Shown one piece after another: positions 8,001 to 14,000 of a DNA stretch of 64,000 bases (the first letter of the stretch is position 1; each line of letters begins with the position of its first letter). The stretch lies in assembly GCA_964106645.2 (NCBI GenBank), contig OZ067043.1. One strand, given 5' to 3'. Made by a program: the position numbers. The DNA comes from Podarcis pityusensis. Its lineage: Eukaryota.

Positions 8001-11000
8001 GCACCAATTCACTGACCTTCAACAAATAACAGGAACCTGGACTATTCTCAATAAGGACTGCTCAGTATGCCAAAAATGCAGATAAACTATGGGACATCTC
8101 TTAAATGTTGAAGGTGAATACGTGTTCTACAATGCTGTGTACTGTCTGAAATAAATGACACCATTTGTACATTAAGGTATTGTGAGCAAAGACTTCAAAC
8201 ATTTCAGAGAATTTATTTCCAACATTCTTTCCCAGAAACAGTTATACTACTTTTAATCAGCAAGCAGTGCATCCCTTTTCATTAATTTTCCTGATAAATG
8301 GCATTTTCTTCCCTTGTTCAGCTCTCATAGCCCTGACAAACTCAACTCTCACCTCAGACTTCTCTGTCTTTCATACTTCTATCAACATACCTGTAAACTT
8401 GGCTAATTCTGTCTCACCACTTCCATTCCTACAAACCGCAAATGTTCTTTACTTGTTGTATTACTTCCAGCAATACAACAAATGTCTTTTTACAAGCTAG
8501 TAATTTGTGTGCATGGACTTTAATGTACAAAATCTTGAGCCCTAGGCTCAAAGTCAGCCTTCTCTGCCACAGTCAGTCACCCTCCTGCTAATACCAGTTC
8601 TGATCCCCATCCTTCCATCTCCAAGGACATGCTTTTATGTACGGTGTCAGCATGTGGTGACAGAAAGTTTACATCACATGCTTCATTGAGTGCAGAAAAG
8701 CAGGAAATGCAAAAATGGGGTCAAAATTGGCTTCTCAAGAAGCTGATTACCATAGCAGCTCTGTGTTCCTGAGGAAAACAAGATGGCTTCCTTAGGCAGT
8801 CCTCACCACAGAAATGGGGTGTATCTAAAAATCCATCTGAGCCCAAGAGGAACACCACCTTAAGGCTTGGTGGAACAAAACTGGTGGATATGAGGTTAAC
8901 TGGGAGACAGATTCAAAATGAGGATAGAAGTCTCATTGTGGACAAGCAGTTAAACTTTCCAATCACATATATGACACAACAAAAGTTTTTGTTGTGTCCT
9001 CTGCTATCTGTTGAGAGACCTTGAATGATTAGGGAGTGGAACATTTACTTCCCTTCCCCTGCTGAAAACTGAGCCATCATATTTCTTCCTTCTGATGCAT
9101 GTAAGTTTGTCCCCTGGCTCTTCTTAAAAGCTTGCTTAGTGCTAAGTATGCTTATGGCTAACAGTTGGGTGTTGCATACATTGAAGTTTAAATGTTTTAT
9201 GGGGATTCCCTTGTTTGATGCTTCTGTGAGTGATTCTGAGAGTGGAGAACTGGCTGGTGTGTACTGCTCAAACCCAAGGCTTTATGGTTGCCGACTCCTC
9301 CATGATGTGAATAGTGATGGGCTGTGTGCTTGGTGTTAGGTGCTTCTTGGCTTGGCTCATCGTGATGGTACCTGGGTTCTTCCAGGTGCTTCTCTTTGTG
9401 TCCAGATGCCTCAGTTGTCGTCACATTAGTACTTGCTGTCTTATTCACCTGTGAAGGTAATGAAAGATTCTAGTATACAGATGGGCTTAGGGTGAAGACA
9501 GAAACACATTTTTAAAAGTGAAGATGGATGTATATATCTGAAGTGATCTGCATTCAGCCCTTTTTGACAAAATATGTAAACTTCCAAAATCAACTGAGCT
9601 CAGAACAACTGCTACTTTCTGTTTTCAGGAGAAATTGGCTGTGAAGAATGGTGATTGCCTGGCAGTCACTTAAAAAGTGGTTTTAAAGAATGTGTAAAAT
9701 AGAAGTTTAAATGAGTAAACATGCTGGATGTTTAGGCGTAGAAATGGTTTTTAAAAGCCCAAAGTTTGAGAGGCAAAAAGCTGCACAGGAGTTTAAGCCA
9801 AGTATATATCTCTCTCAAAAGAGCAGGGAGGGAAGAAGGTTTGATTTCTCCAGATCAGAAAAACCTGCACCGACTCCTGGAAGGAGATCTGTTTGACTTC
9901 ACTCTCGGTATGGTCGAAATGGCTTAAAAGGTATTTATAATATTTTGCTGCATTGGCTATCGGGGCAGCAAAAAACTAAAATAGGTAATACATCAGGGCC
10001 CTCCCGCAATCCCACCTTGAGGAATGAACTTTCAGATCACTGATGGGGCAGGAAGTGACACCACAGGACAAGACAGCAGTTATTATTTCTTCTGTCCAAG
10101 GAACAATATGCTCCCATTCATTGGGAACAGGGAACACTTCAACCTGACAAATTAAGGGTGTTTTTTCAATAACTGAGGGCAGACAATGGTTACTGGGTGA
10201 GGCTCAAGCAGTACATGATAGCAGCAGACCCGGGTCTTGCCCCACCATGTGCAAAACAGGAAGGTGGGGTTGACTTTAGAGAAAAGAGGTGCCTGGGTGA
10301 GGGGAACCAAACCTTTCCTGCACTTGATGCCACACAGTTTCTGTTCCAAAGTGTCTTTCTCCAAGTCAATCTCACTTTTAGTATCTGAACTCAACTGGGG
10401 AGAAAAGCACTTGGGGGAGGGCAAGCACTTGGGGGAGTGTGAGAAGCTGAAAGTGGGGGGGGGGGTTAGCATGTCCTCCCACCTGGGTTCTCCTGGACCC
10501 CTCCACGCTACACTATCTGTGACTGCGGCAGACCTGGTGTCTCCATCTGCAATTTGCTTCTGAGGTTTTTATTTCAAGATGGTTTACTTCCTGCCAAGAT
10601 GAAAGATGCTTTGTGGTATCTCAACATCCTTTCTCCTTGCTTGCTGTAGTGGCCCAATATAATAAAACCCTCCCTTCCACCTTCTCCTTCCACATCCCTT
10701 CTGTAAGACCGATCTGATCAGAAACCTAGAATTCCCAGGCAGAAGTTCAGGATGGGCAAATGAGGAAATGTCTGGCTTAAATAAAATAGTTGAAAAGGAA
10801 GTTGATGAGGGGATTCAAGTCCCTACCTCCTGGCTGCTGTTAGAGGGGTACCAGGAACAATTGCCGCAGTAGTCTTTGCTGTGTGTGTACCGCACGGCTG
10901 CTTCAACATAGGGCAAGTGCAGAAAACTGTATGGCAGCTGGATGTGGAAAGCCAGCCTGCTGCACCTGCAAAGCCCGAGAGCCATGAAACAAATGGACAT

Positions 11001-14000
11001 AAAGTTAGTGTCAGGAGAGCCTGTAATCCACTAATTTACACTGGAAATGAATCTAACCTGGCCTGAAGAATCTGGTTTTCCTCACCAACAGTTGTGAGAC
11101 ATGATGGTAAAGAGAAACACTTACATCATGGTATGTCCTTTCTTTCCAGATGTGTCCTCAAACAGACTTTTTGATAATGTATTCAGGAATCCTGAATTCC
11201 ATATGTCTTACTTTCCTTCCTTCCTTCTGCCCAGGCCTGCAGACCCCCATTGGCCTCCCATCAGCAGCTGCCTACGGAGCACCCTCTTCTGCCCCCGCTA
11301 GTGCTGCTGATGGGATCCCTGCTGGTGGCAGCAGGGGCTTTCAGCAGCCAAGGAAGGAGCTGGACTGAGCCGCCCTGCAGATGGTCCCACTGCCAGAACT
11401 GGGCTTCTTCCAGGCTCAATTGCTGCACCAGCTCCAAGCTGGCTCAGTGATCTGCCTTCCCTCCCTTCTGCCCCGGCTGCTATGCACAGCAGTGGCCCTG
11501 ACTCTCCAAAAACCCTATCAGTCTGGGTGGGTGGGGAGTTAGCATTGCTCCCTTAAGCACTGACCTGTCATAGATCAGGAAGTCATCCTTGTCCCCATCT
11601 AGAATTTGCCAGACGTCAGGCTCCAGAATCTGCTGCTGGTAAACAGGAACTCCCTCTGGGGCATGCCGTTTGAGCTCCCAGTACATGGCCCTGGAGAAAG
11701 GAGTCTTCTCATTCACAATCATGAAGCTGACATTGGTCACTCCTTCAAGTGACAGCTTCCTCTGCAAGCTGCCAAGGCTGGTGGGTAGGAAGAACAAGTA
11801 ACGTTTAGGAAATGAGGTGCACAGATATAGGTTCCAGCCCTTGTCCTCTGCACATACCATGTGGGATATGAGCCTGCACTGCTGGACGGAGGCCCCTTCA
11901 TTTATCAGTTCACTGGACTTGCCATTACAGCGGTCCCTGCTACATAGATCCAGCAATAGGTTAAATGATACATATTATGCTTGAGCTGTAATTCACCAGG
12001 GAAATTGCATCCACCATCTATAAGCGTGTTATATCTGGCCTGCTGCAGCCCAGGCCTCAATTTTTGATTGTTGAACTGGAGCTTATAGACAATCAGTTCA
12101 GTTCTGTGTTTCCTGGTAGAAAGCCTAGGGGCAAAGATGTGACCTTAAGAGTTGTGATATTGCCACTGAACACCAGATACAGGGTTCCAACACATATCTG
12201 ACTTTCTAGTCACATCCAGACCATCTTTTTAAAGCATGTGACTTTCCCCAAAGCATTATGGGAACTGTGATTTACCCCCTGACAGAGCTACAGTTCCCAG
12301 CACTCTTAAACTACAGTTCCCATGACTCTTTGGGGAAAGCCATGTGCGTCAAATGTATGGTGTGGCTGCAACCTAACAGCTCCTGACTCAGGCAATCTTC
12401 TCTATGAACTCACCTGGCGGCCTGCTTGAGACAGAACTGTCAGCTGGCTTTCAACAGTGCCACCACTGTCACTTGGCCCTCCATCCCAGCCATGGGGGCC
12501 ACCCCATTGATCTTCCAGAGTGGTGCAGGTTGGCATATTCTGGTCCTGTTCTCAGCCACGTCTGCCAGCGTAGCAGCAATTGCCAGGAGCAGCAGCAAGG
12601 TGGCTAGGGCTGAATAGCCCATCCTGGCCACCTCCCTTCAGCCTAAAGTAGAAGAGAGCAGCTTAAGACCATAAGAACTTCCCTCAGCAGGGAAGTCTCG
12701 GGGGGGGGGAAGGGGGAAAATAATGAATATGATATGTTTTGATAATTTGTTATGTTGAAATTGTTAATAAAAACAAAACAAAAAAAAAGAACTTCCCTCA
12801 GCAGGCCAGATGCAGCCTCTAAGTCTCAGAAGGCTTTCTTCTTAGTAAACATAGATAGGATTGTCCTACATGGGTGCCCTAGTGCCCTGTATTTGAAAGT
12901 GACAGTAATGGATGCTTAAAGACACACTCACATATCAGCTGCCCAGGATTTCAGCTACAGCAAGGGTTGTTGCTATCCTGTGGCCCTCTGGATATTGTTG
13001 CAGTACAACTCCCAGCATGGTCATTAAGAACCTATGAAGAGACCTGCTGGATCAGACCAAAGGCTCATCTAGTCCAGCATCCTGTTCTCACAGTGGCCAT
13101 CCAGATGCCTAGTGCCACAGCACTCCCTCTATTTGTGGTTCCCATTGACTGGTATGCAGAGGTGTCTCGGACAGTAGAGGTATCCATCATATCTAGTGGT
13201 TATGAATAGCTCTGCCCTCCATGAATTTGTCTAATCCTCCTGTCTTGCCAAAGGCAAGGTGGTTCTTTTAAAATGAGATTCAGAAGCAATACAAAATACA
13301 CAAGTGAGCGAGAAGTTTAAAGATTTTATTCTAAAACAGCAAGCAAGGTATACATATACCAAGCAAGCACTTCAATCTGCCACTTGGAAGCCCCCAAGAA
13401 GCGGCGAAGCGACTCCCCCAGGTACCCTCAGTTTGCATGACCCTGTGGCCGATCAGTCCGTGCATGAGCTTCAAACAAACTCTGCCCAAACCGTCCGATA
13501 TTATAGACAACCTGTGTGGCTTCCAAGACTGGCTATGTGCAGATCATCCAATAGCCACCCCCTCCCAAGGCCTCAGTTTCTCAAAACAATGTCCAGCATC
13601 AAAGAAGGCACCCAGAATTATCCTCCACAACTGATGAAGGCAGCTGTGTGTGAGGCTTCACCTCCTCCCAAAGTTCTCAGGACATTAGAGACTGTTCTCA
13701 CAGCATCAAAAAACTTAACAAGAGCAAGGGAGGGGGAAGGAACAGAGGCAGGAAGGGTAACCGTGTCAGATCACTAACTCCTCAATACATTTTGTTTTCA
13801 GATGCATTTCTCATACACCTCCAAAATAGTGGCTATCTCCACATCCTGTGAGAGCAAGTACTTATATAGTACTTCTTTTTGTCTGCCCTGAATTTTCCAG
13901 TATTCAGCTTCATTGGATGGCCTAATATTCTGGAAGACAGAGAGCAACTTCTCTCCATCTACGTTCTCCATGCCATGCATAATTGTAGACATCACGATCA

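What the first reader, a model, noticed from the sequence alone, without database searches (positions are those of the whole stretch)
8635..12622. UGA-recoding system invisible to ORF calling: single-Sec selenoprotein P2 with UxxC motif and cognate SECIS
The ORF track stops at TGA 12440, but the exon continues in frame (U-Q-F-C-L-K-Q-A-A) to a GTGAGT donor. A textbook SECIS sits about 510 nt after the true stop (TAA, 9197-9199). The product has the thioredoxin-like SelP N-domain and a His-rich tail, but no Sec-rich C-terminal domain and only one SECIS. That is the SelPb/SELENOP2 type known from non-placental vertebrates and reported lost in placentals. Automated annotation may truncate or mis-splice it.
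Basis: partly seen in the sequence, partly recalled or inferred. Interest (0 to 1): 0.7.

Follow-up and report, generated by a model that had tools for sequence, protein, structure and literature searches.

The report
Lizard selenoprotein P2 gene with SECIS
This is an intact copy of the known single-selenocysteine gene selenoprotein P2 (SelPb) in a Podarcis wall lizard; its in-frame TGA is read as selenocysteine with the help of one RNA hairpin in the 3' untranslated region, so it is ordinary biology that public gene models often get wrong.

Summary
On the minus strand, four coding exons (12622..12414, 11777..11565, 10965..10827, 9448..9197) total 813 nt, giving 270 residues and TAA. All three introns have GT/AG borders. 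One in-frame TGA (12442..12440) is residue 61, in the motif U-Q-F-C.

- **Protein family:** exons 1-3 match consecutive parts of Pfam SelP_N. Exon 4 is His-rich (14 of 83 residues) and has no Cys or Sec.
- **SECIS:** one SECIS-shaped hairpin lies at 8702..8630, 511 nt after the stop and before the first poly(A) signal. It is the only hit of a SECIS pattern in 128 kb; shuffles gave 0.175. It is also the minimum-energy fold. It reaches only 16.4 bits on Rfam SECIS_1, whose gathering score is 35.
- **Species and orthology:** exons 2-4 are 100% identical to Podarcis protein entries. All named relatives are selenoprotein Pb.
- **Public models:** the two Podarcis entries avoid or omit the TGA region.

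SelPb/SELENOP2 with one Sec and one SECIS, lost in placentals, is already in print. The finding is correct and already known, so interest is low. The joined spliced model was not searched; all searches were exon by exon.

The parts
12414..12622 (-). First coding exon: ATG 12622..12620, hydrophobic signal-peptide-like N-terminus, beta-strand/UxxC region. Ends at CAG|GTGAGT with 2 nt of a split codon (AG+C = Ser).
   Evidence: Pfam SelP_N E 1.1e-12, profile 2-44. The junction ...QAA-S-LGSLQ is seen in the Ophiophagus entry P0011.
12440..12442 (-). In-frame TGA = selenocysteine codon, residue 61, motif U-Q-F-C.
   Evidence: The 8 codons after it are conserved (FCLKQAAS in P0011 and P0017, FCLTQA in fishes). 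It aligns with the first Cys of CxxC in the shark Cys-forms (A4).
11565..11777 (-). Second coding exon (213 nt).
   Evidence: Pfam SelP_N E 1.7e-24, profile 47-116. 100% identical to P0005, Podarcis muralis. Acceptor ...cccaccag|, donor GACAG|GTCAGT.
10827..10965 (-). Third coding exon (139 nt), the Cys-containing part ...KDYCGNCS.
   Evidence: Pfam SelP_N E 1.3e-14, profile 118-161. Found whole in P0005 and P0020.
9197..9448 (-). Last coding exon, CDS part: N-glycosylation-type sites and His-rich tail (14 His of 83 residues, no Cys, no TGA). TAA at 9199..9197.
   Evidence: Found whole in P0020, Podarcis lilfordi, which also shows the junction SSQE|VNKT. HMM built from SelPb hits: E 7e-4.
8630..8702 (-). 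SECIS element, form 1. Helix I 7+2+2 bp, internal loop, AUGA 8686..8683, helix II 8 bp + A-C mismatch + 2 bp, 12-nt apical loop with AAA 8670..8668, 3' core UGAC with GA at 8648..8647.
   Evidence: Rfam SECIS_1 16.4 bits at 8636..8696, below the gathering score of 35.
8519..8524 (-). First poly(A)-signal hexamer (ATTAAA) after the stop, 673 nt downstream and about 105 nt past the SECIS.
   Evidence: Its use is inferred; there are no transcript data.
12623..12642 (-). Probable 5'-UTR part of the first coding exon, behind an acceptor-like ...ctactttag| (AG at 12644..12643). This implies an upstream non-coding exon that was not located.
   Evidence: Sequence. [quoted passage not shown] Inference only.

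Best explanation
The locus is the orthologue of selenoprotein P2 (SELENOP2, also SelPb or SELENOPB) in a lacertid lizard of the genus Podarcis. It encodes a secreted protein of 270 residues.

Parts of the protein:
- a signal peptide;
- a thioredoxin-like SelP N-domain whose redox motif is U61-Q-F-C64;
- a short Cys-containing segment;
- a His-rich tail.

How it works: the single UGA, in the first coding exon, is decoded as selenocysteine because the mRNA carries one SECIS hairpin 1140 nt downstream, in the 3' UTR. The SECIS-binding factors use it to bring Sec-tRNA to the ribosome.

Shown here: the exon structure, the frame, domain membership, conservation across the TGA, the SECIS-shaped hairpin and how rarely such a shape arises by chance.

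Inferred: actual Sec insertion, secretion, the thiol/selenol oxidoreductase role of UxxC, heparin or membrane binding by the His-rich tail, and the upstream non-coding exon.
For: - **Gene model.** Four exons with GT/AG borders total 813 nt with a single in-frame TGA.
- **Domain.** Exons 1-3 hit consecutive, non-overlapping stretches of Pfam SelP_N. An HMM built from 51 public hits finds exactly these four exons in the six-frame translation of the window (E 7.5e-10, 7e-54, 5e-27, 7e-4). The next best hit is E 0.96.
- **The TGA is read through.** The conserved exons 2-4 are reachable from the ATG only through the TGA. The codons after it are conserved in snake, turtle, caecilian and fish entries.
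- **SECIS.** It is the unique pattern hit in 128 kb, where 0.175 is expected, and it is the minimum-energy fold with z = -2.86. It lies before the first poly(A) signal. Its alignment to SECIS_1 (16.4 bits, below the gathering score of 35) places AUGA, AAA and GA in the model's columns.
- **Orthology.** Exons 2-4 are identical to Podarcis entries, and all named relatives are selenoprotein Pb. Flanking genes look like the locus that Pohl et al. place on human chromosome 1 without a SelPb gene (PMC6301783 section 15). These are an HPD-like single-exon ORF, a NUDIX_4 exon and CAF1 exons. Naming them HPDL, MUTYH and TOE1 rests on my recall.
- **Fold, by proxy.** An AlphaFold model of a public shark Cys-form homologue (P0049) has pLDDT of about 90 over residues 30-150. 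It matches TlpA/ResA/DsbE/CcmG-type thioredoxin-fold oxidoreductases (best E 1.9e-6, TM on target 0.63-0.75). The CxxC sits at the start of the helix after the first long strand.
Against: - Rfam's SECIS_1 covariance model does not reach its gathering score: 16.4 against 35 bits. There are 0 hits at gathering on the window and no SECIS hit at E<=10 on a 1-kb stretch.
- The 3' core reads UGAC, not the published KGAW.
- Helix II has a mismatch.
- There are no transcript, ribosome or protein data.
- No SECIS from another species could be fetched, so conservation and covariation of the hairpin are untested.
- The thioredoxin fold was modelled on a public homologue, not on the window's own joined product, because that step was left out.
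- No public record with the full 270-residue model was seen. The protein set may not index records that bear U.
Confidence: 0.93

Rival explanations
1. The TGA is a true stop, or is spliced around, as the public Podarcis muralis model (P0005) has it. The gene would then make a Sec-free protein and the hairpin would be incidental.
For: P0005 joins ...VVALL directly to GSLQ.... Only 3 of 51 public models carry any residue at the Sec position. The hairpin is below Rfam's gathering score.
Against: The 'intron' implied by P0005 would begin AA and end TT (read), whereas the GTGAGT donor and cag| acceptor give a clean phase. P0005 also reads 6 nt into intron 2 and ends inside intron 3. The skipped codons (KAS-U-QFCLKQAAS) are conserved in other species and hold the redox motif. 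A stop at codon 61 would leave exons 2-4 untranslated, despite SelP_N matches at E 1e-24 and 1e-14.
Confidence: 0.03
2. It is SELENOP1 (SelPa, the multi-Sec selenium transporter) whose Sec-rich last part was missed, rather than SELENOP2.
For: Both paralogues share the SelP_N domain, the UxxC motif, the exon layout and a His-rich region (PMC2397514).
Against: The frame ends at TAA with no further TGA. There is no SelP_C match in the longest 3'-UTR frame. Only one SECIS candidate exists. Every named relative among the 51 hits is 'Pb' or 'P2'. The neighbouring genes are of the SelPb-type locus. No tree against SELENOP1 sequences was built.
Confidence: 0.02
3. The gene is a recently inactivated pseudogene that still looks intact.
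For: A decayed partial duplicate lies downstream, so the locus has been rearranged. The SECIS core deviates at one position.
Against: There is no frameshift or extra stop in 813 nt. All six splice borders are canonical. Exons 2-4 are identical to entries from two Podarcis species, and identity to other squamates is 84-90% over exon 2.
Confidence: 0.02

Closest known systems
Selenoprotein Pb / SELENOP2 of fishes, birds, reptiles, monotremes and marsupials (first described in zebrafish)
   Same: SelP_N thioredoxin-like domain with one Sec in UxxC in the first coding exon, a His-rich region, no Sec-rich tail, one SECIS and the same coding-exon layout (PMC2397514; PMC6301783; preprint). Exon 2 is 61-90% identical to the named SelPb records.
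   Different: Nothing of kind; this is the orthologue in one more species. Small points: the SECIS 3' core is UGAC, and a partial decayed duplicate of exons 3-4 lies 5.4 kb downstream.
SELENOP / SELENOP1 (SelPa), the plasma selenium transporter of all vertebrates
   Same: N-terminal domain, UxxC, signal peptide, His-rich stretch and exon structure.
   Different: SELENOP1 has a Sec-rich C-terminal domain (10 Sec in human, 17 in zebrafish) and usually two SECIS elements (PMC2397514; PMC6301783). Both are absent here.
Cys-forms of SELENOP2 (frogs, sharks)
   Same: Same protein with CxxC at the same place (P0043 and P0049; preprint; PMC2397514).
   Different: Those carry a Cys codon and need no SECIS. 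The window has TGA plus a SECIS.
Bacterial TlpA/ResA/DsbE/CcmG thiol:disulfide oxidoreductases
   Same: Thioredoxin-like fold with the redox motif at the start of the first helix. These are the fold matches of the homologue model. Lobanov et al. aligned SelP with TlpA (PMC2397514).
   Different: Sequence identity is only 8-20%. They use CxxC with no Sec, are not secreted vertebrate glycoproteins and have no His-rich tail.

Membership tests
SELENOP2 / SelPb | SelP N-terminal domain (Pfam PF04592) | tested here: met
   Exons 1, 2 and 3 score 48.2, 86.9 and 54.6 bits (cut-off 23.2) on profile positions 2-44, 47-116 and 118-161.
SELENOP2 / SelPb | [quoted passage not shown] | tested here: met
   U61-Q-F-C64 in exon 1, with no other TGA in frame. 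The feature is as described in PMC6301783 section 14.
SELENOP2 / SelPb | Eukaryotic SECIS in the 3' UTR: AUGA/GA quartet, helix II of about 11 positions, unpaired A's in the apical loop, helix I | tested here: met
   Unique hit of my pattern in 128 kb with 0.175 expected. Minimum-energy fold, z = -2.86. One deviation: C after the 3' GA, against KGAW.
SELENOP2 / SelPb | SECIS recognised by a covariance model | tested here: not met
   Rfam SECIS_1 gives 16.4 bits against a gathering score of 35. I had no known SECIS to use as a positive control, and SECISearch3's own models were not available, so the weight of this failure is uncertain.
SELENOP2 / SelPb | No Sec-rich C-terminal domain; one SECIS only | tested here: met
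   TAA follows 83 residues of exon 4 with 0 Cys and 0 Sec. No SelP_C match in the longest 3'-UTR frame. One candidate under a loose pattern in 6500..9196.
SELENOP2 / SelPb | His-rich region | tested here: met
   14 His in the 83 residues of exon 4.
SELENOP2 / SelPb | Orthology to SelPb rather than SelPa | tested here: inconclusive
   All named hits are Pb/P2, and the neighbours fit the SelPb-type locus. No tree with SELENOP1 sequences was built, and the neighbour gene names are recalled.
SELENOP2 / SelPb | [quoted passage not shown] | tested here: inconclusive
   Four coding exons were found. An acceptor-like AG lies 21-22 nt before the ATG. The non-coding exon was not located, and there are no transcripts.
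SELENOP2 / SelPb | Thioredoxin-like fold with the motif at the helix start | tested here: met
   Met by proxy only. The model of public homologue P0049 matches thioredoxin-fold oxidoreductases. The window's exons align to it across the core (A4). The window's joined product was not folded.
SELENOP2 / SelPb | Sec actually inserted at the UGA | not testable with these tools
   Needs 75Se labelling, mass spectrometry or ribosome profiling.
SELENOP1 / SelPa | Sec-rich C-terminal domain and, as a rule, two SECIS elements | tested here: not met

The most novel reading that the evidence does not exclude
The lacertid SELENOP2 SECIS may be a weak, non-consensus element. It has U-C instead of U-U/A at the outer pair of the quartet, a mismatch in helix II, and a score far below Rfam's gathering score. 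Much of the message would then terminate at UGA, and the gene would be drifting towards loss or Sec-to-Cys conversion, as happened in frogs, sharks and placentals. The nearby decayed exon 3-4 duplicate would be a trace of instability at the locus.
Probability: 0.05. Interest if true: 0.3.

Novelty: already known. Interest (0 to 1): 0.12.

Why it matters
It matters little for biology. SELENOP2 as a single-Sec, single-SECIS paralogue, kept in non-placental vertebrates, is established.

The practical value is for annotation. Both public Podarcis protein entries seen here are wrong around the Sec codon or truncated, as are most other public SelPb models of reptiles and fishes. The coordinates given here supply a clean model that could correct them. 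The case also shows that a stop-to-stop ORF track and Rfam at gathering threshold both miss a real recoding system.

Tried and rejected
- **Rfam at gathering on the whole window:** 0 hits. At E<=10 on 8300..9300 there were four chance-level hits and no SECIS. SECIS_1 appeared only on a 131-nt stretch, at 16.4 bits and E 0.78, next to equally weak mir-218 and C/D snoRNA hits.
- **A second SelP gene downstream.**
  - tblastn hinted at an exon-1-like stretch near 7600 with TGC in place of TGA (sequence).
  - Its DNA alignment score (23) is no better than that of shuffled queries (mean 22.3), so I reject it as chance.
  - Pfam finds nothing in that frame.
  - No exon-2-like or SECIS-like copy was found downstream.
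- **A relic of a Sec-rich tail in the 3' UTR:** no SelP_C match.
- **Solved structures by sequence with exon 2:** none at E<=1.
- **Search with exon 1 for a correct full-length squamate record:** only 8 hits, none with the complete model.
- **Not done:**
  - Searching, cluster look-up or folding of the joined four-exon product. Exons were used one by one and the joined step was left out.
  - Cross-species comparison of the SECIS.
  - A SELENOP1/SELENOP2 tree.
  - the SECISearch patterns and filters of PMC3753652;
  - the SECIS table of PMC6301783;
  - the SelPb alignment of PMC3316567;
  - the sequence and species tables of the 2025 preprint.
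Full report
**What is in the sequence.** Read on the minus strand, the region holds a four-exon coding model.

| Exon | Coordinates | Length | Notes |
|---|---|---|---|
| 1 | 12622..12414 | 209 nt | ATG at 12622..12620 |
| 2 | 11777..11565 | 213 nt | |
| 3 | 10965..10827 | 139 nt | |
| 4 | 9448..9197 | 252 nt | TAA at 9199..9197 |

- The sum is 813 nt, which gives 270 residues plus the stop.
- The donors are CAG|GTGAGT, CAG|GTCAGT and GAG|GTAGGG. The acceptors are ...cccaccag|, ...ctttgcag| and ...ccttcacag|.
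- Translated exon by exon with TGA read as U, the only in-frame TGA is at 12442..12440. It is residue 61, in the sequence ...VVALLKAS-U-QFC-LKQAA.
- The split codons give Ser (AG+C) and Arg (AG+G).
- Public entries show the same junctions: QAAS-LGSLQ in a king cobra entry (P0011), and IYDR-CSRL and SSQE-VNKT in a Podarcis lilfordi entry (P0020).
- The window has no N.
- I take the window for a lizard, not human. I searched the model exon by exon, and I did not build, search or fold the joined product.

**Protein family.**
- Pfam SelP_N matches exon 1 (E 1.1e-12, profile 2-44), exon 2 (1.7e-24, 47-116) and exon 3 (1.3e-14, 118-161). These are consecutive pieces of one domain, which supports the splice model.
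- Exon 4 has no significant Pfam match (one chance-level hit, StbA_N, E 0.037, below its cut-off). It has 14 His in 83 residues and no Cys.
- An HMM built from the 51 public hits matches exon 4 at E 7e-4. In the six-frame translation of the whole window, that HMM finds these four exons and nothing else better than E 0.96.

**Species and orthology.**
- Exon 2, searched against longer proteins, gave 51 hits.
  - It is 100% identical to a UniRef entry of Podarcis muralis (P0005).
  - It is 84-90% identical to other squamates and 76-81% to turtles and alligator.
  - It is 61-69% identical to fishes and sharks.
  - Every hit that carries a specific name is 'selenoprotein Pb' or 'P2'.
- Exons 2 and 3 occur whole in P0005. 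Exons 3 and 4 occur whole in P0020, which also holds exon 2 from its internal Met onward.
- Exon 1 differs from P0005 by a two-residue indel in the signal peptide.

**The SECIS.**
- *Shape.* The 73-nt stretch 8702..8630 folds, as its minimum-energy structure, into:
  - a lower helix of 7+2+2 bp;
  - an internal loop;
  - AUGA (8686..8683) opposite UGAC (GA at 8648..8647);
  - an upper helix of 8 bp, one A-C mismatch and 2 bp;
  - a 12-nt apical loop beginning U-AAA (8670..8668).
- *Stability.* The energy is -18.9 kcal/mol with z = -2.86, and 1 of 200 shuffles folds as well. In a longer 96-nt context the minimum-energy fold differed, and only the centroid showed this shape.
- *Pattern scan.* I wrote a pattern after the published description of SECISearch. 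It is my own version; the exact published patterns are in a supplement I could not open. It asks for:
  - ATGAN, then 10-13 nt, then AA;
  - a loop of 4-12 nt;
  - an upper stem with at most 2 mismatches, then NGAN;
  - a 7-bp lower helix with at most 1 mismatch, behind loops of 3-10 nt.
- *Chance.* The pattern hits once on both strands of the 64-kb window, and the hit is here. In 200 dinucleotide shuffles the mean was 0.175 hits, and 31 of 200 had at least one.
- *No second element.* A much looser upper-stem pattern finds no second candidate in the 2.7 kb after the stop.
- *Position.* The AUGA lies 511 nt after the stop and 1140 nt after the UGA in the spliced message. The first poly(A) hexamer (ATTAAA, 8524..8519) comes after the element.

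**Against the SECIS.**
- Rfam found nothing at gathering thresholds on the window.
- On a 131-nt stretch, SECIS_1 reached 16.4 bits (gathering score 35, E 0.78). It aligned AUGA, AAAC and CUGA to the right columns.
- The published core is UGAN/KGAW (PMC3753652, passages). Here the last position is C.
- I had no known SECIS for a positive control of the Rfam model and no other species' 3' UTR to compare.

**Mechanism.**
- The conserved exons 2-4 can be reached from the ATG only through the UGA.
- The eight codons after it are conserved: FCLKQAAS in snake and turtle, FCLTQA in fishes, and HFCLLQAAS in a caecilian.
- The UGA aligns with the first Cys of CxxC in the shark Cys-forms (A4). A 2025 preprint reports sharks and frogs as Cys conversions (passages).
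- A model of one such public homologue (P0049; mean pLDDT 73, about 90 over residues 30-150) has a thioredoxin-like fold.
  - It matches ResA/TlpA/DsbE/CcmG-type oxidoreductases and peroxiredoxins (best E 1.9e-6).
  - The CxxC sits at the start of the helix that follows the first long strand.
- From this I infer that the window's product is a secreted thiol/selenol oxidoreductase-type domain with a His-rich tail. Sec would be inserted by the standard eukaryotic SECIS route.

**Comparison with the literature.**
- Lobanov et al. 2008 (PMC2397514, passages):
  - SelPa and SelPb differ by the Sec-rich region, and both have the His-rich region.
  - All SelPb sequences have a single Sec, except the frog Cys-form.
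- Mariotti et al. [quoted passage not shown]
- Pohl et al. 2018 (PMC6301783; abstract, sections 14, 15 and 20, and passages):
  - SelPb genes have one SECIS.
  - The SelPb locus is conserved, and its human counterpart on chromosome 1 lacks the gene.
- In the window, the neighbours are an HPD-like single-exon ORF (20621..21973 +), a NUDIX_4 exon (26586..26969 -) and CAF1 exons (39373.., 44428.. +). By my recall these fit the HPDL-MUTYH-TOE1 group of human 1p34.
- The finding is therefore a correct recognition of a known gene.

**Annotation.**
- Of the 51 public proteins found with exon 2, 3 carry any residue at the Sec position: W in a swordfish entry and C in two sharks. The other 48 skip, truncate or read around it.
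- P0005 (180 aa) jumps from ...VVALL to GSLQ. That needs an 'intron' beginning AA and ending TT. It also reads 6 nt into intron 2 and ends in intron 3.
- P0020 (182 aa) starts at an internal Met of exon 2.
- I saw no record with the full model. Records that bear U may escape this index.

**Side observation.** A decayed partial duplicate of exon 3, the end of intron 3 and the start of exon 4 lies at about 3797..3466 on the same strand.
- DNA alignment scores are 41 and 56, against shuffle maxima of 27 and 36.
- blastn finds 53 nt at 81% identity, E 7e-8.
- The alignments A1 and A2 show indels of 1, 5, 3 and 17 nt. There are also stops in the SelP frame.

**Verdict.** The gene is already known, and interest is low.

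Noticed in passing
window 3466..3797, minus strand: Decayed partial duplicate of SELENOP2 exon 3, the last ~50 nt of intron 3 and the start of exon 4, about 5.4 kb downstream of the real last exon. It has frame-breaking indels and TAA/TGA stops in the SelP frame. The copy keeps intron sequence, so it is a genomic duplication, not a retrocopy. Its 'intron' is only about 150 nt, against 1378 nt in the gene.
   Followed up: partly
public proteins P0005, P0020 and others: Public SelPb models are mostly wrong at the Sec codon. Only 3 of 51 hits keep a residue there. One turtle entry (P0017) simply drops it (KAS-QFCL). A swordfish entry has W and a caecilian entry (P0056) has R at that place.
   Followed up: partly
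window 20621..21973, plus strand: Uninterrupted 451-codon frame of the 4-hydroxyphenylpyruvate dioxygenase family (Pfam Glyoxalase E 2e-6; atlas score 0.97 to a chordate cluster). It looks like a single-exon HPD-like gene; the name HPDL is recalled.
   Followed up: partly
window 26586..26969 (-), 39373..39735 (+), 44428..45198 (+), 51640..52785 (-): Exon-sized frames with NUDIX_4 (E 3e-4) and CAF1 (E 5e-5 and 2.5e-4) matches, plus a 382-codon Ser/Pro-rich frame without any Pfam match. By recall these fit MUTYH, TOE1 and TESK2, the neighbours of HPDL on human 1p34.
   Followed up: partly
window 12673..12691 and 12787..12805: Perfect 19-nt direct repeat flanking about 95 nt of T-rich, A/T-rich and poly-C sequence, 50-180 nt upstream of the ATG. 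It looks like a target-site duplication around a small insertion next to the first coding exon.
   Followed up: no
window 12213..12368 (intron 1): The stretch matches its own reverse complement (66% over 167 columns, E 3e-6). It is an inverted-repeat element carrying the motif GGGAACTGTAG on both arms.
   Followed up: no
window 4983..5064: Compound microsatellite (TC)23(CA)18, 100% pure.
   Followed up: no
window 4..516, minus strand: 170-codon open frame running off the window start. Only a weak zinc-finger match (E 0.084). By recall it resembles the C-terminal end of a retrotransposon ORF2.
   Followed up: no
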